Positions 1 through 7,210 are shown, numbered from the stretch's first letter. The stretch: 7,210 bases of DNA from a virus (IMGVR_UViG_2778261667_000004:1-7210), one strand, 5' to 3'. Numbers and translations are program-made. The notes: generated by a model from the letters alone, not told the origin.

Positions 1-567
1 TTCTTGCACCGTCTGATAGAGCGTCATCTCTTCAGCATTGTGCCGTATAAAATCTGCTTTCCCGCCTATTTTTCCATCAGCATGAACAGGCACCAACCAG
101 GGGTGCTTGAGGCGAACTTCAATCGGTGCTGCATGTTGATGGTGCCACTTACACAACGGGAGGACGTATTTATGGGCATCTTTAGCCGTTCTGCCAAATA
201 TGTGGTGGAGAGATACGACAGGGCTATACTTCCCGTGAAGATGGCAGGCAATACAGGGGAGTTTGCCTATAGCGTCCTGTATCCGGCGCTCTTCTGCTGT
301 GAGTGATCTCCCTTTTAATCCGCGTGACGTGCGCGTTTTTTTGGGGAGGGCTGACGTCGCTCTCTCTCTTCTGCGCTGTTCACTTTGCCTCGCTTTTTCA
401 AGTTTCTTTTGACGATATTCAGGCGATGCGGCTTTTTCCCTTGCGCGTTGCTGCTGGCGTTGAGCCTGCTGAAGACGTTTTGCCCTTTGCTCTTCCCGCC
501 ATTCCGGATCAGCCAGTTTTTGCATGGCTTTTTGTCTCTGTTTCTCCCAATAACTCTGTCTCTGCAT
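1..567 (-). CDS. Ref-like HNH endonuclease (P1 recombination enhancement function family), 3' end beyond window start; alternative start at 525
   Basis: Reverse-strand frame open from 567 to position 1 with no stop, so not in the ORF track. Translation: MQRQSYWEKQRQKAMQKLADPEWREEQRAKRLQQAQRQQQRAREK...GLKGRSLTAEERRIQDAIGKLPCIACHLHGKYSPVVSLHHIFGRTAKDAHKYVLPLCKWHHQHAAPIEVRLKHPWLVPVHADGKIGGKADF...TVQE. Basic, probably disordered N-terminus followed by a CxxC...HH...CxxHH zinc/HNH-type motif, matching my recollection of P1 Ref. Only weak SD-like AAGAGA upstream of ATG 567. Confidence 0.7.
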   Translation of the reverse strand, partial: MQRQSYWEKQRQKAMQKLADPEWREEQRAKRLQQAQRQQQRAREKAASPEYRQKKLEKARQSEQRRRERATSALPKKTRTSRGLKGRSLTAEERRIQDAIGKLPCIACHLHGKYSPVVSLHHIFGRTAKDAHKYVLPLCKWHHQHAAPIEVRLKHPWLVPVHADGKIGGKADFIRHNAEEMTLYQTVQE

Positions 568-685
568 GTTGGCTGTCTCTTACTTATCAGCGATTTTTTA
601 TAATTGATCATATTTGTTAGTTATTCAAAATTGATTTCTAACATAAAACATTAATATCATCACTGATAACTGTTTGGAGGACATG
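568..685. promoter_or_regulatory. Divergent AT-rich control region between Ref-like gene and rightward operon; inverted repeat TGTTAG(615-620)-N17-CTAACA(638-643); candidate -35 TTGATT (631-636)
   Basis: Non-coding AT-rich stretch between two divergently oriented starts. Inverted repeat and TTGATTT/TCTAACATA words are shared with 4767-4788. The -10 is ambiguous (TAATAT 652-657 at 15 bp spacing, or TATCAT 655-660 at 18 bp). Confidence 0.3.
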
Positions 686-838
686 ATGCTTATAGCTTTA
701 AGTGCGATCCACCAGCCATCTGTGAATGAGATCGGTCTGTTCTATGTGCTGTTTTTCGGGGCGTTGGCGCTACTTGAGCTTGGTATTGAGCTTTTTGCCG
801 TGCTGATGTTTTGCGTCACGATGCTGGGGAAATTTTGA
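686..838 (+). CDS. Small hydrophobic (membrane) protein, about 50 aa, first gene of rightward operon; not in ORF track
   Basis: GGAGG at 676-680, then ATGATG (683/686). Translation: MLIALSAIHQPSVNEIGLFYVLFFGALALLELGIELFAVLMFCVTMLGKF. Stop TGA 836-838 overlaps ATG 838 of the next gene (TGATG). Hydrophobic stretch long enough for 1-2 TM helices. Confidence 0.45.
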   Translation: MLIALSAIHQPSVNEIGLFYVLFFGALALLELGIELFAVLMFCVTMLGKF

Positions 839-1461
839 TGGTGAAACGTGTTTTGAAAATTTACATCGCGGGGCCGATGACTGGTTATCCAGAGTACAAC
901 CGCGCGGCGTTTAATGCGAAAGCGAGCGAGTTGATGGCTGAAGGGCATATCGTTCTGAATCCGGCGGTATTACCTGGTGGCCTTTGTCAGAGTGAATACA
1001 TGGATATTTGCCTGGCAATGGTGCGTTCTGCTGATGCTATCTATCTGCTTAAGGGCTGGGAATCGTCCTCAGGAGCACGAGCAGAACATGACCTGGCTGA
1101 AAAACTGAGGCTTACGGTAATTTATGAATCGCCATCTGACAGAGATTGCAGAATGGCAGCGCATATTTACCGTGAACTGGTCAATGCGTTGTGTGATGTT
1201 GCTATTGAATGTCACGGCACGGATCAGCTTCGCGCTCGCTTAAGCAATACCCTTTCCAGCTACCTGTCTTTAGCTGAAGGATACAACCTCCGGCAGCGGA
1301 GAATGGTCAAATTAATCACGCGTTTATCTCAATCCCTGGCAAATGCCGAACCAACTAATCCGCTACCTAATGACGCAATGAATTATCTGAAGTCATGCGG
1401 CGTTGTTTCTGAAGATGCAGTTCGTTTTGTGGAGTTTATGTCTCAGAGGATGTCGGCGTGA
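838..1461 (+). CDS. DUF4406-family protein (nucleoside 2-deoxyribosyltransferase-like fold) with about 100-aa C-terminal extension of unknown function
   Basis: N-terminal KIYIAGPMTGYPEYNRAAFNAKASELMAEGHIVLNPAVL...AIYLLKGWESSSGARAEHDLA...VIYES matches the DUF4406/NDT-like signature as I recall it. GGGGAA about 7 nt upstream of ATG 838. The track's TTG 811 start would overlap the upstream small ORF, so ATG 838 is preferred. Confidence 0.8.
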   Translation: MVKRVLKIYIAGPMTGYPEYNRAAFNAKASELMAEGHIVLNPAVLPGGLCQSEYMDICLAMVRSADAIYLLKGWESSSGARAEHDLAEKLRLTVIYESPSDRDCRMAAHIYRELVNALCDVAIECHGTDQLRARLSNTLSSYLSLAEGYNLRQRRMVKLITRLSQSLANAEPTNPLPNDAMNYLKSCGVVSEDAVRFVEFMSQRMSA

Positions 1462-1775
1462 GCTGGCGGGGATGGGGAAGGGCAGAAATCATGATACTCC
1501 GCCAGTGCGCCGGGACTATGACGGTCGAGAGTATCGGGAAGCTGATCGGTCGTACCGGTGATGCCGTCAGGACTAAAGCGCGGGAGCTGAGAATCAGCAT
1601 GATTCTGAAAGGTGACTTTCACCAGTCAGCCAAATACCGGCAGAGCGATATAGAGCTGGCGCGGCAGCTTCATCAGTGTGGCGTTCCCCGCCGTGAGATC
1701 GCAGAAAAACTCGAAATGCCCCTGGGCATGATTAATCAGTACGTTTATTTCGAAAGGAGAGTGCATGAAGTCTGA
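1458..1775 (+). CDS. GcrA-like / tandem helix-turn-helix DNA-binding protein
   Basis: GTG start in a GTGA overlap with the upstream stop; AGAGGA 8 nt upstream. MSW...IGKLIGRTGDAVRTKARELRIS resembles the GcrA N-terminal HTH; second HTH-like segment DIELARQLHQCGVPRREIAEKLEMPLGMINQY. Confidence 0.65.
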   Translation: MSWRGWGRAEIMILRQCAGTMTVESIGKLIGRTGDAVRTKARELRISMILKGDFHQSAKYRQSDIELARQLHQCGVPRREIAEKLEMPLGMINQYVYFERRVHEV

Positions 1776-2202
1776 AGGTTTAACGCCAGAGCAACTGGCG
1801 GCGGAGAATGCGGCATTGCGTGAAGTAGTTGAACGCATGATAAATCAATTTGCAATGAGCGGTATTTCTCCAGAAGAGAAGTCAATCAATCCCGCAGCGT
1901 CGCTCATGTTTGATGCTAAATCAGCATTGTCTATGCCTGCAACTGACGCTTTCCTGGCTGAAGTTCGTGCTGAGGCACGCAACGAGGGGATTAACTATAC
2001 CGCAAGCCGTCTTGCTGCTGCTTTTAACCACGGATTTATCAATAAGTCTTTACGTGAAGTTTTCGACGTTACGCGCATGATTCTGTCAGCAAAAGAAGAG
2101 TTGGCTAATGAACCGCACCCGATTGATGGCCTGTCCGGTGAATATGCGGAGAAATCCCTGGAAGAATGGGCAGAACAGATTCGCAAAGGAGGTGATAAGT
2201 GA
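1765..2202 (+). CDS. Ea22-like protein, short paralog carrying only the coiled-coil plus PATDAFLAEVRA module
   Basis: AGGAGA SD then ATG 1765. Contains LAAENAALREVVERM and SMPATDAFLAEVRAEARNEGI, the same modules as in 2618-3322 and 6665-7210. Confidence 0.75.
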   Translation: MKSEGLTPEQLAAENAALREVVERMINQFAMSGISPEEKSINPAASLMFDAKSALSMPATDAFLAEVRAEARNEGINYTASRLAAAFNHGFINKSLREVFDVTRMILSAKEELANEPHPIDGLSGEYAEKSLEEWAEQIRKGGDK

Positions 2203-2609
2203 AGAAGATGATTTTTGTGGCGGCATTGGTGGCCATTACCCAACAGGCACAGGCTTCAGCAGTTATTGTGGCATCTACCGCCGCGACAACGGCTGCTGTA
2301 GCTGCTGCGAACTCTGCGAATATCGCAAACCAACAGGCACAGCGTGCTGCCAATGCATCAGCCGGTGTTCAACCAATTACCATTAAGGCCAGTAAGCAAA
2401 ATCTGGGGTTCATAACGTGCGGCAAGCGTTCTTATGAAGCTGTAGGCTCTCTGGGATGTACGGTATATGGCGATAGTGAGAGTAGAGAAATTCCATGGAA
2501 AACGTGGCCCGGATACGTTCTCGGCTCGAAGCTCCCGGCCAGCTATGAAGTAAACGCCGTATCGTTTGATCACTATAACGGCGTGGCAACTGTCTATTTT
2601 GCATATTGA
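2199..2609 (+). CDS. Secreted/periplasmic protein of unknown function (signal peptide, Ala/Thr/Asn-rich linker, two-Cys C-terminal domain)
   Basis: AGGAGGT SD then GTG 2199 in a GTGA overlap. N-terminus MKKMIFVAALVAITQQAQA|SAV is a textbook Sec signal with AxA cleavage site. Low-complexity linker, then globular C-terminus with Cys-x13-Cys. No lipobox. Confidence 0.7.
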   Translation: MKKMIFVAALVAITQQAQASAVIVASTAATTAAVAAANSANIANQQAQRAANASAGVQPITIKASKQNLGFITCGKRSYEAVGSLGCTVYGDSESREIPWKTWPGYVLGSKLPASYEVNAVSFDHYNGVATVYFAY

Positions 2610-2617
2610 GGCTCCGC

Positions 2618-3322
2618 ATGAAATTCTCCAAATTTTCTGAGTTGGTGAATCGTATTTTGTCCAACAACCACAGCCATCATAGCGATATGGATGTGACGAT
2701 CGTTGTTCATTCGCCTGGCAGCATTGGTTCAACACCCTCAGTTGAGGTTCAGTCAATTCACGCTGGTTTTGATTGGGATTCCGGGAAAGTGCTGATTTTC
2801 CCAGCACAGCCACTGACCACGCTAACACCAGAACAGATTACTGATATTACTGATAGTGTGCGCAAAGGTCAGTCCTGGCACGCATATCAGGAATACAAGA
2901 AGCATAAAGAGCAGTTGGAAAAATTGTCGATTGAACTTGATGCCGCAAAACAGCGCGTTGCAGAGCTGGAGAGCAATCGAGCGGCGCTGGCGGCGGAGAA
3001 TGCAGGGCTAAAGGCGATATGTGATGACCGTCGCAGGCTCATCATGAATGGGGTGCAGATGGGTTATATCAAGGTGCCAACAGCGGAAACAGATCCAGAC
3101 CTTGAGACAATACGTATTGCTATATCACCACAAAAGCCCATTCCAGCCACCGATGCTTTCTTGGCTGAAGTGCGGGCGGAGGCGTTTAACGACCTTTGCG
3201 CGGCGTTTGTCATGGACGCGAGGGGAGTAGGACTGGATGATGACGAGCTAGTGACGCTTAAAGATGCGACAGGTGCGCTGCTGCATTGTGCAGAACAGCT
3301 TAGGGAAGGGGGCAGTCAGTGA
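2618..3322 (+). CDS. Ea22-like protein (Ead/Ea22 family), full-length paralog with distinct N-terminal domain
   Basis: GAGG SD then ATG 2618 (track TTG 2606 would overlap the upstream stop). Coiled-coil NRAALAAENAGLKAICDD and PIPATDAFLAEVRAEAFNDL shared with the other two Ea22-like genes; unique N-terminal domain (DVTIVVHSPGSIGSTPSVEVQSIHAGFDWDSGKVLIFP). Confidence 0.8.
   Translation: MKFSKFSELVNRILSNNHSHHSDMDVTIVVHSPGSIGSTPSVEVQSIHAGFDWDSGKVLIFPAQPLTTLTPEQITDITDSVRKGQSWHAYQEYKKHKEQLEKLSIELDAAKQRVAELESNRAALAAENAGLKAICDDRRRLIMNGVQMGYIKVPTAETDPDLETIRIAISPQKPIPATDAFLAEVRAEAFNDLCAAFVMDARGVGLDDDELVTLKDATGALLHCAEQLREGGSQ
2981..3002 (+). repeat. 22-bp direct repeat (GCGGCGCTGGCGGCGGAGAATG), identical copy at 6968-6989, 16-bp core also at 1797-1815
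   Basis: Exact string match read from the sequence; encodes the AALAAEN coiled-coil segment of the Ea22-like paralogs. Confidence 0.85.
3143..3180 (+). repeat. About 38-bp near-identical direct repeat (PATDAFLAEVRA-coding), partner at 7118-7156, more diverged copy at 1936-1977
   Basis: CCAGCCACCGATGCTTTCTTGGCTGAAGTGCGGGCGGA versus CCAGCCACCGATGCTTTTCTGGCTGAAGTACGGGCGCA; a handful of mismatches by eye. Confidence 0.8.
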
Positions 3323-3618
3323 ATATCGACACCACGATAACGATCGACACGGCTCTCAACACAGGTTTGGCCTTGCTCGGTTGGGTTTACATCATGTTCA
3401 GTGCAGTACGGTGGGTGAAATCTGTTTTTCTAAAGCAGTGGGATAAACTCCGCGAAAAATCACGCCGCCAACAGGCCGTAGATGAATTTTGCGATGCATT
3501 TTCTTTGGAATGCATGGAGCCAGGTAGCACCATCCGCATCGCAACGAAGGAGGACTTGATAATTATGATGTATCGACAGGAGAAGGCAAATGACAGAACA
3601 GACGATGACAAATCGTGA
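3319..3618 (+). CDS. Small single-pass membrane protein, unknown function
   Basis: GTG start inside the junction GGGGGCAGTCAGTGA (3308-3322), overlapping the upstream stop. One predicted TM segment (TALNTGLALLGWVYIMFSAV). Confidence 0.5.
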   Translation: MNIDTTITIDTALNTGLALLGWVYIMFSAVRWVKSVFLKQWDKLREKSRRQQAVDEFCDAFSLECMEPGSTIRIATKEDLIIMMYRQEKANDRTDDDKS

Positions 3619-3814
3619 ACTTGTTGATGCCGCGATTGAACTTGCTGGCGATTTTTATTCCATGATGGGTTACGAGCATCGACCTGGTTTTAAGTATTGG
3701 GAGTCACCGCATCCGCAAGAACGACAGGTGTTTGAAATGGCCTGCCGTGCTTTTGAGGTTATTCGCGGCTCTGATGTGATGGATGCCGTTGCCGACTTGG
3801 AGGATGAAGAGTGA
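3590..3814 (+). CDS. Small acidic protein, unknown function (74 aa)
   Basis: AGGAGAAGG SD immediately upstream of ATG 3590; 29-nt overlap with the upstream gene; acidic composition with DLEDEE tail. Confidence 0.55.
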   Translation: MTEQTMTNRELVDAAIELAGDFYSMMGYEHRPGFKYWESPHPQERQVFEMACRAFEVIRGSDVMDAVADLEDEE

Positions 3815-4041
3815 GCATCATTAAAGAAATGCCGGTAGAACGTGATGAATATGGCTGCTGGACACATCCTGAATATGAAAAATTCTGTGATGGTAGAGAA
3901 CTTATTTCAACGGAAGAGTTTGACACCTGGATGAAGGAAAAGAATCTTCAGTGGACTATTCGCAGTATGGATGAAGATGATTTTAATCTGGGCGCAGATG
4001 GTCCGGTTTGTATCTGGCTGCGGGAGAAGGTTGCCGCATGA
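3811..4041 (+). CDS. Small acidic protein, unknown function (76 aa)
   Basis: GTG 3811 in a GTGA overlap with the upstream stop; its stop overlaps the phosphatase ATG (ATGA at 4038-4041). Two Cys pairs (GCW...FCDG; GPVCIW). Confidence 0.55.
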
Positions 4042-4730
4042 CCCAGGCGCTGCATGAAGTGAATTTATATAGCCGTATTGATGGTTCAGGCTACAGAAAC
4101 ATATGGGTTGTTGGTGATTTGCACGGTTGCTACACCCTGCTTATGAATAAACTCCATCGTGTGGATTTTGACCCGACACAGGATTTACTGATATCGGTTG
4201 GCGACCTTATCGATCGCGGCACAGAAAATGTTGAATGCCTGGAGCTATTGCAGATGCCCTGGTTTCGGTCGGTTATGGGAAACCACGAGCGATTAATGAT
4301 CGATGCGTTAAGTCCCTCTGGCAACGTGAATAACTGGCTAATGAATGGCGGTCAGTGGTTCTTTATGCTGGATAGTGATAAGGAAGTTTTAGCCGGGGCG
4401 CTGGTGGAGCTGGTTAGACGACTGCCTTATATCATAGAGCTGAACACAGGGCAGGAGACTATTGTCATTGCTCATGCTGACTATCCGGATAGAGAGTATC
4501 AGTTTGGCAAGGATGTGTCGCTTTTCAATGTCATCTGGTCGCGAGACCGTGTTAGTGACTCGATAGATGGCATCGGTGAAGAAATCACAGGCGCAGATCG
4601 CTTTATCTTTGGACACACACCGGTACGAAGACCAAAAGCATTCTGGAATCAGCACTACATAGACACAGGCGCGGTTTTTTGCGGAAATCTGACGCTAATA
4701 CAGGTGAAGGGAGGGCAGCTTAAAGTCTGA
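4038..4730 (+). CDS. PPP-family Ser/Thr protein phosphatase, PrpA/PrpB / lambda-phosphatase (ApaH-related) type
   Basis: Canonical metallophosphoesterase motifs in order: GDLHGC (GDxHG), GDLIDRG (GDxxDRG), GNHE, plus later His residues. Length and layout resemble E. coli PrpA as I recall it. GGAGAAGG SD before ATG 4038; track TTG 4008 rejected. Confidence 0.92.
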
Positions 4731-4756
4731 TCAAACCATTTATGCACTCAAAAATT

Positions 4757-4795
4757 CGTTAGAACATTGATTTTAGTTTTCTAACATATTATTTT
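4757..4795 (+). promoter_or_regulatory. Candidate sigma70 promoter (TTGATT 4767-4772, N17, TATTTT 4790-4795) overlapped by inverted repeat GTTAGAA(4758-4764)-N14-TTCTAAC(4779-4785)
   Basis: 98-bp AT-rich intergenic gap after the phosphatase stop. Hexamers match consensus 4/6 and 4/6 at 17-bp spacing. Perfect 7-bp inverted repeat spans the -35 and spacer. Confidence 0.35.
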
Positions 4796-4828
4796 ACCGA
4801 TCGGAACAAAACAGAGTCGGTATGCATT

Positions 4829-5824
4829 ATGAGTGCAATAATCACCCCATATGTCGTAAATGAAACTGGTGTGGCTGTCTTTCCTGTAGATAAGCCCACC
4901 AGCAATTACATCGGCGCAGGACGCCGTTTCATTATCTCTCCACTTCCGCGTGAACAGGCGGAAAACACGCCAGATGGCGTAGTGGATCTGAATTATTCGC
5001 TGGTTGCCAACCAGTCTCTGAAACCATTTTTTCAAAGCGAGCGCGTATTTAACGCATTAGGCGGTGAAGATTCGCTTGTTCATTGGGTAAGTTCCAATAT
5101 CCACGATTGCCAGGCGCACGATAAGCGCGATTGCAGCCACCAGCTAACCACCCATTTCTATAACGGTTCTGCCGTTCGTCTGTGCTGGAAGCATGATGCG
5201 GAATACATGATGAAGGGATACGACAAGCTGGAAGACCAACTGTCACTGAATCGCGCCAACTGGATTATGAACTGGGCTGCCAGCGAGTTAAAACTTCCGC
5301 CAGATCGCGATCTGAGCATGGTTGAACTCACCTTTTGGGCCATTCGCCGGAATCTTAAAGACGAACTGCCTGATGAAGCTGGTCGCATTGCATTTTGTCA
5401 GCCAAAAACTGAAATCCCTACCGGCACCCTGAAAGAGTCGGATATTACCTGGGAGCATAGTACCCGCGAGCTGGTGGATATTTCCGCAGAGCAGATCGTC
5501 AATCTGTCCGTCGATGAAGATTCTGGCCTCCTATATATGCGCCGTCCAAAAACCTTACTCGGAAAAAGCCAGGCTTATCTCCGGTTTGTGGTGTCTCGCC
5601 CATGTGTAGGCTGCGGCGGCAAGGTTAATCACCCGTTCATGTACCGTGCCCGCTCATTAAACGAACACGACCGCTGGGCTGTTCCTCTTTGCGATGACTG
5701 CGCCAGAAGCGCAGAAAACGATGTCCGGGCATGGGAAAAAGCACATGGAATACGCCTTTACGTAGCAGCTAACCAGCTTTTCGACTTCGCCATCGAGCGC
5801 GGAGTGATCACGTTCAATAACTGA
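4829..5824 (+). CDS. DUF968-like prophage protein with C-terminal Cys-rich (CxxC...NEH...CxxC) Ref/HNH-like zinc motif
   Basis: 331-aa ORF after the promoter-like region. C-terminus RPCVGCGGKVNHPFMYRARSLNEHDRWAVPLCDDCARS parallels the PCIAC...HH...PLC motif of the Ref-like gene. Overall resemblance to enterobacterial prophage DUF968 proteins is from memory. Weak SD. Confidence 0.7.
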   Translation: MSAIITPYVVNETGVAVFPVDKPTSNYIGAGRRFIISPLPREQAENTPDGVVDLNYSLVANQSLKPFFQSERVFNALGGEDSLVHWVSSNIHDCQAHDKRDCSHQLTTHFYNGSAVRLCWKHDAEYMMKGYDKLEDQLSLNRANWIMNWAASELKLPPDRDLSMVELTFWAIRRNLKDELPDEAGRIAFCQPKTEIPTGTLKESDITWEHSTRELVDISAEQIVNLSVDEDSGLLYMRRPKTLLGKSQAYLRFVVSRPCVGCGGKVNHPFMYRARSLNEHDRWAVPLCDDCARSAENDVRAWEKAHGIRLYVAANQLFDFAIERGVITFNN

Positions 5825-5840
5825 TGGAGTGGATCAAAAA

Positions 5841-6419
5841 ATGAAAGAACGCGGGATGATTTTTAACGATGAAATGGTCCGGGCAATTCTTGGCGGGAAT
5901 AAAACACAGACTCGCAGGATTGTTGAAGAAAAATTCTATGGACGGGCAGTGGCCGCAGAGTTGCTTGCCAAGCATTGTCCATATGGTCAACCGGGCGATC
6001 GTATTTGGGTTCGCGAAACCTACCGGGTACATGGCAAAGCGACGGACGTCGCAACGCTGGTTTATCGCGCAAGCGTGCGTAACTCCTGGACAGAACAAAC
6101 GCACCGGGTTCCGGTCGAGGTTTGTAATAAACCAGTATCAGAAAAGTGGACGCCATCAATTCACATGCCGCGCTGGGCATCGCGCATTTTGCTGGAAATT
6201 ACCGACGTGCGTGTGGAACGGCTGCATGACATGAGCGAGGCAGATGCTAAAGCAGAAGGCGCAACTCCGGCGACGTACAAGATTACGCCACCTGAAGCTG
6301 TTTATCGCGTTGGTTTTGGTGATATCTGGCGCAGTATTTACGGGCAGGATAACTGGCTATCTAACCCGTTGGTATGGGTAATAGAGTTTAAGCGTATTCA
6401 GGGGGCAACCAGTGAGTGA
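5841..6419 (+). CDS. ASCH-domain (PUA-like fold) protein
   Basis: MIFNDEMVRAILGGNKTQTRR matches the ASCH signature (compare E. coli YqfB DDILAGRKTITIR), followed by GDRIWVRETYRV and C-terminal VWVIEFKRI (YqfB ends FYVIEFK). Start ambiguous: GTG 5829, ATG 5841 or ATG 5856. Confidence 0.75.
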   Translation: MKERGMIFNDEMVRAILGGNKTQTRRIVEEKFYGRAVAAELLAKHCPYGQPGDRIWVRETYRVHGKATDVATLVYRASVRNSWTEQTHRVPVEVCNKPVSEKWTPSIHMPRWASRILLEITDVRVERLHDMSEADAKAEGATPATYKITPPEAVYRVGFGDIWRSIYGQDNWLSNPLVWVIEFKRIQGATSE

Positions 6420-6678
6420 GTCAAAATGCCAAATTAATGGCAACAAGATAGAACCGTGCGCGGCGTTGACGCAATCCCTGGAGCATGACGCTGAATACAC
6501 GACGCGAAAAGGTCTGCTGAAATACAAAATCTATAACCATGCATTAATTCATTCACAAGACCTGATCATGCTGCGGTCTGGTGAATTTTCTAAATCACCG
6601 ATTCGAGTTTCATTTTGCCCGTTCTGTGGTGAAAGTCTGAAAACGTGGGAAGCGGAGGCAACCAGTGAGCAAAATTAA
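6412..6678 (+). CDS. Small Cys-containing protein (possible zinc ribbon), unknown function
   Basis: GTG 6412 inside junction GGGGGCAACCAGTGAGTGA, overlapping the ASCH stop. Cys-x9-Cys near N-terminus and CPFC near C-terminus. Confidence 0.5.
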   Translation: MSESKCQINGNKIEPCAALTQSLEHDAEYTTRKGLLKYKIYNHALIHSQDLIMLRSGEFSKSPIRVSFCPFCGESLKTWEAEATSEQN

Positions 6679-7210
6679 CTATCAAGAACTGCGCGAGGCG
6701 GCGGAACAGGCAACGCAAGATGAATGGGTAGCATATATTTTGCCGGGTCATAACGGCATTTATCCTGCGCGCACGTCTGAGGGTAGGCATTGCGGATACT
6801 TTATTGACTGGCCTGGCATTGATGGACAAAGGAATGCTGGTGCTAATGCCCGTTATATCGCGGCTATCCCACCAAAAGTTGCGCTGGCACTCCTGGGCGA
6901 AATTAAGCGCTTGGAAGACACAAATATTGATGCTATGTGCCGAATTGCAGAACTGGAGGCCTGTCGCGCGGCGCTGGCGGCGGAGAATGAGCTGGCTCGT
7001 AAAGCAGTTCAGGCATTCTGCGATGTTGTTGGCGACAACACCGAGGTTATCGCTGAGGAGATTGGGAGAGATGGTGTTCTGGCTATTTTGGAGGCCATGA
7101 AGGCAACAGGAAATATGCCAGCCACCGATGCTTTTCTGGCTGAAGTACGGGCGCAGGGGGTGGATGCTGCTATAGAAGCTGCAAAAAATCTGGTGGTCCA
7201 AGAATATGAG
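6665..7210 (+). CDS. Ea22-like protein (Ead/Ea22 family), N-terminal part; continues beyond window end
   Basis: Open frame from GTG 6665 to the window end with no stop (absent from ORF track). GGAGG 8 nt upstream. Translation VSKINYQELREAAEQATQDEWVAYILPGHNGIYPARTSEGRHCGYFIDWPG...ACRAALAAENELARKAVQAFCD...NMPATDAFLAEVRAQGVDAAIEAAKN is typical of the family as I recall it. Confidence 0.8.
   Translation, partial: MSKINYQELREAAEQATQDEWVAYILPGHNGIYPARTSEGRHCGYFIDWPGIDGQRNAGANARYIAAIPPKVALALLGEIKRLEDTNIDAMCRIAELEACRAALAAENELARKAVQAFCDVVGDNTEVIAEEIGRDGVLAILEAMKATGNMPATDAFLAEVRAQGVDAAIEAAKNLVVQEYE
6968..6989 (+). repeat. 22-bp direct repeat, partner of 2981-3002
   Basis: Exact string match read from the sequence. 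Confidence 0.85.
7118..7156 (+). repeat. Near-identical direct repeat, partner of 3143-3180
   Basis: See partner entry. Confidence 0.8.

What the first reader, a model, noticed from the sequence alone, without database searches (positions are those of the whole stretch)
615..4788. Same regulatory words (TTGATTT and TCTAACATA, with (T/C)GTTAG...CTAAC inverted repeat) in both intergenic regions
The only two non-coding gaps of the rightward gene array (568-685 and 4731-4828) both contain TTGATTT (631-637; 4767-4773) and TCTAACATA (637-645; 4780-4788) with inverted GTTAG/CTAAC half-sites. They are contiguous in the first site and split by a 6-nt insertion in the second. This suggests one DNA-binding regulator controls both the operon start and the internal DUF968-ASCH promoter. 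The GcrA-like HTH protein is a candidate; the prophage repressor, which is not in this window, is another.
Basis: seen in the sequence. Interest (0 to 1): 0.45.

Follow-up and report, generated by a model that had tools for sequence, protein, structure and literature searches.

The report
Phage-plasmid C1 repressor operator sites
The two shared "regulatory words" are most likely copies of the binding site for the master (C1-type) repressor of a D6-like, P1-family phage-plasmid, placed over two promoters so that these genes stay silent in the lysogen; this is the expected counterpart of the well-known P1 system.

Summary
The words are at the stated coordinates. Each alone is at chance level, but the extended 19-bp motif AWWTTARTTTTCTAACAYA is not: it has 2 hits in the window against 0.04 expected.

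The window is a segment of a phage D6-like, P1-family phage-plasmid. In D6 (91 kb) the motif has 13 strong copies. All are intergenic, and they lie before c1, lpa, repL, hrdC-dmt and ref, just after ref, and at ppp|DUF968. This mirrors the annotated C1 operators of P1.

D6 C1 is a distant homologue of P1 C1 (21% identity, same PHROG and Pfam family). The P1 operator (ATTGCTCTAATAAATTT) shares only a TCTAA core with it. Around ref, each element carries the operator type that matches its own C1.

In both window gaps a strong site is paired head-to-head with a weaker inverted one (TTAG-N18-CTAA). The pair overlaps a TTGATT -35-like hexamer.

Its homologues occur in 26 loci without the motif, and one element has the sites but no homologue.

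No binding or transcript data exist. This is an ordinary member of a known kind. A hypervariable 4-5-nt tract beside each pair is unexplained.

The parts
1..567 (-). 5' part of a ref-like gene (RecA-dependent nuclease); its start codon is at 565-567 and it runs off the left end of the window
   Evidence: Pfam RecA_dep_nuc, E = 3e-35. D6 orf87 'Ref-like' lies at the same place.
613..631 (-). Weaker left operator of the first pair (reads ATTTTGAATAACTAACAAA on the minus strand), facing ref
   Evidence: PWM score 14.4 of a maximum 30.5. The GTTAG core is invariant in 25 relatives. In the L065-L071 group this site is a near-perfect copy.
627..645 (+). Right operator of the first pair (AAAATTGATTTCTAACATA), facing the rightward operon. 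The window copy lacks one T that all relatives have.
   Evidence: PWM 20.8; the D6 and CP042620 versions score 28.5 and 27.8. The block 616-660 is invariant in relatives.
631..660 (+). Promoter-like element for the rightward array: TTGATT, 18 nt, TATCAT
   Evidence: The only plus-strand promoter-like hit in the window. In the diverged L065-L071 group TTGATT-17-GATACT is kept (read by eye). No transcript data.
600..628 (-). Candidate leftward promoter for ref: TTGAAT (628-623), 17 nt, AATTAT (605-600)
   Evidence: Relaxed scan, 8 of 12 positions. Inference only.
611..615 (.). Hypervariable tract just outside the left core of the first pair
   Evidence: Column 615 has T6/A5/G9/C5, H = 1.95, the most variable of 725 columns.
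4755..4773 (-). Weaker left operator of the second pair (reads AAATCAATGTTCTAACGAA on the minus strand)
   Evidence: PWM 12.9 in the window and 16.1-16.8 in D6 and CP042620. GTTAGA at 4758-4763 is near-invariant in 34 relatives (G4758 varies in a few, H = 0.32; 4759-4763 invariant).
4770..4788 (+). Strong right operator of the second pair (ATTTTAGTTTTCTAACATA), before the DUF968 gene
   Evidence: PWM 28.8. Exact match to the degenerate consensus. Positions 4767-4798 are almost invariant in 34 relatives.
4767..4795 (+). Promoter-like element for DUF968 and downstream genes: TTGATT, 17 nt, TATTTT
   Evidence: Relaxed scan, 8 of 12 positions. Both hexamers are invariant in relatives. Inference only.
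4754..4757 (.). Hypervariable tract just outside the left core of the second pair
   Evidence: H = 1.83, 1.37, 1.31 and 0.99. Column 4754 is the most variable of 737 columns.
683..4730 (+). Rightward accessory-gene array presumably controlled from the first site: small ORF, DUF4406, HTH ORF 1458-1775, Ea22-like ORFs, and the Ppp phosphatase 4038-4730
   Evidence: ORFs; Pfam; D6 orf88-orf97 are collinear.
4829..7210 (+). Genes presumably controlled from the second site: DUF968 (4829-5824), ORF 5841-6419, ORF 6412-6678, and an Ea22-like ORF that runs off the right end
   Evidence: ORFs; Pfam DUF968, E = 4.6e-45.

Best explanation
Both gaps carry operators for the C1-type master repressor of a D6-like, P1-family phage-plasmid. 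The repressor gene lies outside this window.

The recognised unit is an asymmetric site of about 19 bp, AWWTTARTTTTCTAACAYA. Here it occurs as head-to-head pairs: a weaker copy on the minus strand and a stronger copy on the plus strand. Their 5' arms overlap by 4 nt, or 5 nt in the first pair of this window.

The first pair (613-645) sits between the divergent ref gene and the rightward accessory operon and covers the -35-like hexamers of both. The second pair (4755-4788) covers a TTGATT-17-TATTTT promoter-like element before the DUF968 gene.

In the lysogen, bound C1 would occlude these promoters. When C1 is inactivated by an antirepressor, ref, the accessory array and the DUF968 unit would be switched on together with c1-, lpa- and repL-linked functions elsewhere on the element.

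Shown: the motif, its genome-wide distribution, its conservation, and its match to the element's C1 type.

Inferred: that C1 is the protein that binds, that the promoter-like elements are real promoters, and that binding represses them.
For: (1) Context. The window is 87% identical to phage D6 and about 90% identical to many E. coli and Salmonella phage-plasmids of about 92 kb.

(2) Distribution in D6. A PWM built from D6 copies gives 13 hits above 23 of 30.5, all in the 10% of the genome that is intergenic. Shuffled genomes give 0.7 hits at a score of 15 or more, against 15 observed.

(3) Location in D6. The sites lie 12 bp before c1, before lpa, before repL, between repL and icd, before hrdC-dmt, before ref, after ref, between pmgR and pmgS, and at ppp|DUF968. 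P1 has annotated C1 operators Oc1, Olpa, Odmt, Oref, Omat, OpmgRa/b and Oppp at the corresponding genes.

(4) The repressor. D6 C1 is homologous to P1 C1: BLASTP 21% identity over 240 aa, E = 2e-8. Both fall in phrog_1678. D6-type homologues carry PF27008 Phage_P7_repressor_C1.

(5) Operator type follows C1 type. The D6-type PWM finds nothing at 14 or more in the 74 kb of P1 and P7 scanned. The P1-type PWM finds no strong site in D6. P1, and an IMG/VR contig with a 50%-identical Ref, have P1-type operators before and after ref; D6-type elements have D6-type sites at those same two places. In P7 the unit that begins with upf86.8, part of the stretch matching window 4092-6668, is preceded by the P1-type operator Op(hea).

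(6) Conservation across C1 lineages. The c1-proximal, lpa and cre-side sites are kept in lineages at 100, 90 and 80% identity. The TTTTCTAACA core is kept directly before c1 and before lpa at 51% and 44% identity. The 44% element also has a 29.3-scoring site before its DUF968 gene and a 22-bp-spaced pair before lpa.

(7) The closest complete plasmid, CP042620, encodes a C1 100% identical to D6 C1 (one apparent frameshift in that assembly) and has the same set of about 14 sites. Contig IMGVR_UViG_2778261184_000002 carries Ref at 96%, the HTH at 97% and C1 at 90% identity.

(8) Phylogenetic footprint. Positions 616-660 and 4758-4798 are nearly invariant in 25 and 34 relatives, while the flanks vary.

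(9) In P1, C1 binds 22 dispersed asymmetric 17-bp operators (PMC8546580), and a C1 site occludes a ref promoter (PMC4713147).
Against: There is no experimental binding, footprint or transcript evidence for any D6-type site.

c1 is not in the window, so its presence in this particular element is inferred from relatives.

The left sites are weak (scores 12.9-14.4), and their position +6, which is invariant A in the strong sites, varies freely among relatives. They may therefore not all bind.

The first site in this window deviates from all relatives by a 1-nt deletion and scores only 20.8.

Promoter-like matches are modest, 8-9 of 12 positions.

Any other DNA-binding protein common to all D6-like elements would give the same distribution. 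The assignment to C1 rests on analogy with P1 and on synteny with c1.
Confidence: 0.8

Rival explanations
1. The sites are bound by the small HTH protein encoded in the window (1458-1775), which autoregulates its own operon and the internal DUF968 promoter.
For: The protein matches phrog_323 'transcriptional regulator, D5-like', E = 1e-27. It also has a weak Sigma70_r4_2 HTH signal. It is present in nearly all D6-like loci examined.
Against: There is no GcrA or other Pfam family above threshold. Homologues at 70-78% identity sit in 26 non-D6 viral loci (146 kb) with no motif copy at 17 or more. Contig IMGVR_UViG_2908543018_000007 has both operator pairs, scoring 25-27, but no homologue was detected in the flanks held or in the collection scan. 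This rival does not explain motif copies directly before c1, lpa and repL in elements down to 44% C1 identity.
Confidence: 0.04
2. The motif is the site of another regulator shared by D6-like elements and not of C1, for example a second immunity factor, an Lpa-type activator or a host nucleoid protein.
For: The sequence data alone cannot name the binding protein. Several sites lie only 12-14 nt from start codons (c1, orf52, hrdC), which is unusual for a promoter-occluding operator.
Against: The motif differs from the -22 box of P1 late promoters (AAGTGACTT) and is not found before the structural late operons. The set of genes preceded by it matches the P1 C1 regulon. The motif core co-occurs with c1 at a fixed position across 44-100% C1 identity. 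It shares the TCTAA core with the P1 C1 operator.
Confidence: 0.1
3. The two regions are simply copies of one promoter cassette (common descent or module exchange) with no dedicated repressor. The similarity would reflect sigma-70 promoter elements in AT-rich DNA.
For: Both contain TTGATT with a -10-like hexamer 17-18 nt downstream. In one relative the homology with the DUF968 module starts right at the left site, so the cassette moves with the gene.
Against: The conserved CTAACA core lies in the spacer, not in a -35 or -10 hexamer. At the other 11 strong D6 copies there is no consistent -35/-10 arrangement around the motif (sequences inspected by eye). Thirteen dispersed copies of a 19-mer with an invariant 10-nt core are far more than promoter consensus explains.
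Confidence: 0.05
4. The words match by chance in AT-rich intergenic DNA.
For: Each short word alone is at chance frequency in the window.
Against: The composite 19-mer is found 2 times against 0.04 expected. The paired geometry has an expectation of 0.00. The sites are invariant in 25-34 relatives. Thirteen copies in D6 are all intergenic.
Confidence: 0.01

Closest known systems
C1 repressor operators of phages P1 and P7 (Op/O sites; consensus ATTGCTCTAATAAATTT)
   Same: They are asymmetric sites of 17-19 bp, present in more than a dozen copies dispersed over a plasmid prophage of about 90 kb. They lie before c1 itself, lpa, hrdC-dmt and ref, after ref, in the pmgR/pmgS region and in the ppp region. 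The two repressors are homologous. They share a TCTAA core, and in the same-orientation alignment 10 of 17 positions agree. Some sites occur as overlapping inverted pairs. In P1, C1 occludes a ref promoter (PMC4713147).
   Different: The sequence differs outside the core. The D6 type has a conserved 5' arm, AWWTTAR, and TTTT before CTAAC, whereas P1 has TTGC before TCTAAT and a 3' AAATTT arm. Neither PWM finds the other's sites. The paired geometry is opposite. In P1 the 3' arms overlap by 6 bp, giving CTAA-N8-TTAG over 28 bp. In the D6 type the 5' arms overlap by 4 bp, giving TTAG-N18-CTAA over 34 bp. The C1 proteins are only 21% identical. A D6-like plasmid was reported to lack the corepressor Lxc (PMC6799933). 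Binding is proven for P1 and not for D6.
P1 bivalent operators Oc1ab and Obanab
   Same: Two inverted, overlapping copies of the asymmetric operator lie over a promoter.
   Different: The orientation is head-to-head rather than tail-to-tail. The core-to-core spacing is 22 bp rather than 12 bp. In the window the two halves are of unequal strength (28.8 against 12.9, and 20.8 against 14.4).
Lambdoid CI/Cro operators (OL/OR)
   Same: They are repressor sites over early promoters of a temperate phage. The downstream accessory genes (Ea22-like, Ppp/NinI-like) are shared with lambdoid phages.
   Different: Lambdoid operators are symmetric dimer sites clustered at one immunity region. Here the unit is asymmetric and scattered over the whole element.

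Membership tests
P1-family C1 repressor operator network | An asymmetric site of about 17 bp repeated at many dispersed intergenic places in the element | tested here: met
   There are 13 strong copies in D6, all intergenic, and about 14 in CP042620. Five D6 copies have no inverted partner, so the unit is the asymmetric 19-mer.
P1-family C1 repressor operator network | The element encodes a C1-family repressor | tested here: met
   Met for relatives, not for the window itself because c1 is off-window. D6 C1 against P1 C1 gives E = 2e-8. Both are in phrog_1678. D6-type homologues carry PF27008 Phage_P7_repressor_C1. Contigs that share the window's genes carry C1 at 90-100% identity.
P1-family C1 repressor operator network | Match to the P1 consensus ATTGCTCTAATAAATTT | tested here: not met
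   The best P1-type PWM score in the window is 15.6 of 26.8, at 4752-4768. D6 has no strong P1-type site. Only the TCTAA core is shared. This is a different specificity class.
P1-family C1 repressor operator network | Sites placed at c1 (autoregulation) and at lytic or early genes such as lpa, repL, ref and dmt | tested here: met
   One search compared with the P1 annotations. The c1 and lpa sites are kept down to 44% C1 identity. That repL is C1-controlled in P1 is taken from PMC8546580.
P1-family C1 repressor operator network | Sites overlap sigma-70 promoters | tested here: inconclusive
   Promoter-like hexamers overlap both window sites, but the matches are modest and there are no transcript data.
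P1-family C1 repressor operator network | Specific binding by C1 protein and repression in vivo | not testable with these tools
   This needs EMSA or footprinting, reporter assays or ChIP-seq.
P1-type bivalent operator | Two inverted 17-mers overlapping by 6 bp at their 3' arms (28 bp) | tested here: not met
   Pairs exist, but they are head-to-head with the 5' arms overlapping by 4 bp (34 bp, cores 22 bp apart).
   Pfam gives only Sigma70_r4_2 at E = 0.0088, 16.1 bits against a cutoff of 25.7. PHROGs gives 'transcriptional regulator, D5-like'.

The most novel reading that the evidence does not exclude
The paired D6-type operators carry a localised hypervariable tract of 4-7 nt. It lies just outside the left core at 611-615 and at 4754-4757, and in the centre of the pair before hrdC. 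Among near-identical relatives this tract changes about 25-fold more often than the surrounding DNA, while the operator cores stay invariant. This could reflect a real process, either diversifying selection that tunes second-site occupancy and so the induction threshold of ref and the accessory operons, or a mutational hotspot at the edge of a stably bound repressor. If so, it would be more than relaxed constraint.
Probability: 0.15. Interest if true: 0.55.

Novelty: new member of a known kind. Interest (0 to 1): 0.3.

Why it matters
It gives a usable operator consensus, AWWTTARTTTTCTAACAYA, and a predicted C1 regulon for D6-like phage-plasmids. These elements are common in E. coli and Salmonella, and their GenBank records annotate no operators.

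It predicts that ref, the Ea22/Ppp accessory array and the DUF968 unit are lytic-phase genes silenced in lysogens.

It also shows that a 21%-identical pair of C1 repressors kept a TCTAA core while changing flanks and pair geometry. That is a tidy case for studying how specificity diverges and how heteroimmunity arises.

It does not change how these phages are understood.

Tried and rejected
Literature:
- I tried to read the D6 genome paper (Gilcrease and Casjens 2018, PMC5800970), Sauer and McDermott 2004 (PMC534624) and the P1 genome paper (PMC523184). None is held, so I cannot say whether D6 operators were described before.
- A full-text search for the motif words found only unrelated primers.

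Searches that found nothing useful:
- A genome-contig scan with D6 C1 found nothing.
- A tblastn search of D6 C1 against the phage collection found only D6 itself.
- Rfam found nothing in the window.

Ideas considered and dropped:
- Late-promoter element. The P1 -22 box AAGTGACTT is unrelated, and a loose scan for it in D6 gave three scattered intergenic hits. Rejected.
- Leader hairpin at 4795-4822. The fold z-score is -1.8, and the variable positions 4799-4800 break pairs without compensation. Not supported.
- IHF site at the second gap. It does not fit the WATCAANNNNTTR consensus (consensus recalled from memory, compared by eye; no tool run).
- My first alignment of the D6 motif to the reverse complement of the P1 operator. 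It was replaced by the same-orientation alignment on TCTAA after the P1 PWM scored the left site of the second pair.


Full report
**Observation.** TTGATTT is at 631-637 and 4767-4773. TCTAACATA is at 637-645 and 4780-4788. GTTAG is upstream of each. The array of rightward ORFs has only two sizeable gaps, 568-682 and 4731-4828. Each word alone is at chance frequency, 3 against 2.1 expected and 2 against 0.9 expected. The extended motif is not. AWWTTRRTTTTCTAACAYA with up to 3 mismatches hits only these two places, 2 against 0.04 expected, and 0 of 200 shuffles reach 2. GTTAG-N17-TCTAAC has an expectation of 0.00.

**Context.** The window is not an integrated prophage. It is a segment of a phage D6-like, P1-family phage-plasmid. 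It is 87% identical to Escherichia phage D6 over 63% of its length. It is about 88-91% identical over 80-89% of its length to many E. coli and Salmonella plasmids of about 92 kb. No near-identical source is in the collections.

On the minus strand a ref-like gene (RecA-dependent nuclease, Pfam E = 3e-35) starts at 567 and runs off the left end. The first gap is therefore a divergent control region. The rightward genes are a small ORF, DUF4406, a 105-aa HTH ORF, Ea22-like ORFs, the Ppp phosphatase, then DUF968 and further ORFs. They are collinear with D6 orf88-orf100.

**The motif in whole genomes.**
- In D6, TCTAACA occurs 14 times, 12 of them in the 10% of the genome that is intergenic.
- Aligning the copies gives a 19-bp asymmetric motif, AWWTTARTTTTCTAACAYA.
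- A PWM finds 13 copies scoring above 23 of a maximum 30.5, all intergenic, plus 2 moderate ones. Shuffled genomes give 0.7 hits at 15 or more, against 15 observed.
- The copies lie 12 bp before c1, before lpa, before repL, between repL and icd, before hrdC-dmt (a pair), before ref, just after ref, between pmgR and pmgS, at ppp|DUF968, and before a cre-side operon.
- The richly annotated P1 record has C1 operators at the corresponding genes: Oc1a-e, Olpa, Odmt, Oref, Omat, OpmgRa/b and Oppp, plus the bivalent Oc1ab and Obanab.
- P1 C1 is reported to bind 22 dispersed asymmetric 17-bp operators, with consensus ATTGCTCTAATAAATTT, and to control RepL and Lpa (PMC8546580). A C1 site occludes a ref promoter (PMC4713147).

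**Link to C1.**
- D6 encodes a C1 homologue. BLASTP against P1 C1 gives 21% identity over 240 aa, E = 2e-8. Both are in phrog_1678. D6-type homologues carry PF27008 Phage_P7_repressor_C1.
- Operator type follows C1 type. The D6 PWM finds nothing at 14 or more in the 74 kb of P1 and P7 scanned. A PWM from the annotated P1 operators finds no strong site in D6 or in the window.
- At one orthologous place the swap is visible. P1, and an IMG/VR contig with a 50%-identical Ref, have P1-type operators before and after ref. D6-type elements have D6-type sites at the same two places.
- In P7 the unit that begins with upf86.8, part of the stretch matching window 4092-6668 at about 90% identity, is preceded by the P1-type operator Op(hea).
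- The closest complete plasmid, CP042620, encodes a C1 100% identical to D6 C1 (split by one apparent frameshift in that assembly) and has the same set of about 14 sites.
- In IMG/VR contigs with C1 at 100, 90 and 80% identity, the c1-proximal, cre-side and lpa sites are all kept.
- In metagenomic elements with C1 at only 51% and 44% identity, the TTTTCTAACA core is still found directly before c1 and before lpa. The 44% element also has a 29.3-scoring site before its DUF968 gene and a 22-bp-spaced pair before lpa.

**Anatomy in the window.** PWM hits are 4770-4788 (+, 28.8), 627-645 (+, 20.8), 613-631 (-, 14.4) and 4755-4773 (-, 12.9). Nothing else in the window scores above 12.1. Each gap thus holds a head-to-head pair, with cores TTAG...CTAA 22 bp apart. 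The 19-mers overlap by 4 nt at their 5' arms. D6 has the same geometry before hrdC, between repL and icd, and in its two homologous gaps, alongside five unpaired sites.

This is the opposite of the P1 bivalent arrangement, CTAA-N8-TTAG with the 3' arms overlapping by 6 bp. The best P1/D6 operator alignment is in the same orientation on a shared TCTAA core, with 10 of 17 positions agreeing.

In the first gap it is the 5' arm of the right operator. In the second it is the complement of the 5' arm of the left operator. In both it is a -35-like hexamer: TTGATT-18-TATCAT at 631-660 and TTGATT-17-TATTTT at 4767-4795. A leftward TTGAAT-17-AATTAT (628-600) could serve ref. These promoters are predictions only.

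**Conservation.** In 25 and 34 relatives, positions 616-660 and 4758-4798 are almost invariant while the flanks vary. In one relative the homology with the DUF968 module starts at the left operator, after a terminator-like hairpin, so the operator-promoter cassette travels with the gene.

ORF 1458-1775 has no GcrA hit and only a sub-threshold HTH match. PHROGs calls it a D5-like transcriptional regulator. Its 70-78% homologues occur in 26 non-D6 viral loci (146 kb) with no motif copy at 17 or more, against 84 copies in 31 D6-like loci. Contig IMGVR_UViG_2908543018_000007 has both operator pairs, but no homologue was detected. This argues against that protein, though diverged homologues could have a different specificity.

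**Mechanism proposed.** In the lysogen, C1 bound at the pairs occludes the promoters for ref (leftward), the accessory array (rightward) and the DUF968 unit. Inactivation of C1 by an antirepressor derepresses them along with the rest of the regulon. The motif, its distribution, its conservation and its match to C1 type are shown. Binding by C1, promoter identity and repression are inferred.

**Unexplained.** Immediately outside the left core of both pairs is a hypervariable tract. Column 615 has all four bases at near-equal frequency (H = 1.95), and column 4754 has H = 1.83. Each is the most variable column of about 730. Among pairs of relatives with 7 or fewer differences in about 720 columns, 10 of 18 and 43 of 59 differ inside the tract, where about 2-3% would be expected under a uniform rate. 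The hrdC pair has a similar variable centre. The unpaired c1 site has none.

The window's first site is also unique among all the D6-like relatives examined (about 30). It lacks one T (TTGATTT-CTAACA) and has GTTAGT for GTTAGA. This could be a sequencing error in a T run, or a real operator-weakening variant that also moves the -35/-10 spacing from 19 to 18.

**Novelty.** This is the D6-lineage counterpart of the classical P1 C1 operator network, with its own sequence and pair geometry. The D6 GenBank records annotate no operators. I found no description in the searchable literature, but the two most relevant papers could not be read. A specialist would expect such sites. Interest is modest.

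Noticed in passing
window 611-615 and 4754-4757; also L167-L192, upstream of hrdC: There are hypervariable 4-7-nt tracts beside or inside the paired operators. They are the most variable columns of alignments of about 730 columns, and they differ in 10 of 18 and 43 of 59 near-identical sequence pairs. The operator cores are invariant.
   Followed up: partly
window 621 and 634-637: The window's first operator pair is unique among all the D6-like relatives examined (about 30). One T is missing from TTGATTTTCTAACA, and it has GTTAGT instead of GTTAGA. Its PWM score falls from about 28 to 20.8, and the core spacing falls from 22 to 21 bp. This could be a homopolymer sequencing error or a real operator or promoter variant.
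   Followed up: partly
D6 (L001/L002) 197-215, 54201-54219 and 64114-64147: Several D6-type sites end only about 12-14 nt before a start codon (c1, orf52, hrdC). This leaves almost no room for a leader and suggests very short 5' UTRs or a roadblock mode of action.
   Followed up: no
window 1765-2202, 2618-3322 and 6665-7210: Three ORFs share the peptide PATDAFLAEVRA(E/Q) and an AALAAENA stretch, which is Ea22-like. Parts of 1933-3814 are 92-94% identical to unrelated phages such as phiV10, so the accessory array is mosaic.
   Followed up: no
In CP042620 its counterpart is annotated as hypothetical, and a different gene is the one called ASCH. The ASCH label was not confirmed here.
   Followed up: partly
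L029 about 2370-2460 (IMGVR_UViG_2908543018_000007): A shorter D6-like element has ref and DUF968 only about 1.4 kb apart, with no HTH gene. Similarity to the window's second gap begins right at the left operator, after a GC-rich terminator-like hairpin. The operator-promoter cassette appears to move with the DUF968 module.
   Followed up: partly
window 604-610 (TTGATCA): A conserved TGATTGATCA block containing a GATC (Dam) site lies just left of the hypervariable tract in the first gap. It is invariant in relatives. Its role is unknown.
   Followed up: no
L249 14484-14520 and L099-L102 about +4412 to +4445: In C1 lineages at 80% and 44% identity, the lpa-upstream operator is a head-to-head pair with the same 22-bp spacing. 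In D6 itself the partner is degenerate.
   Followed up: partly
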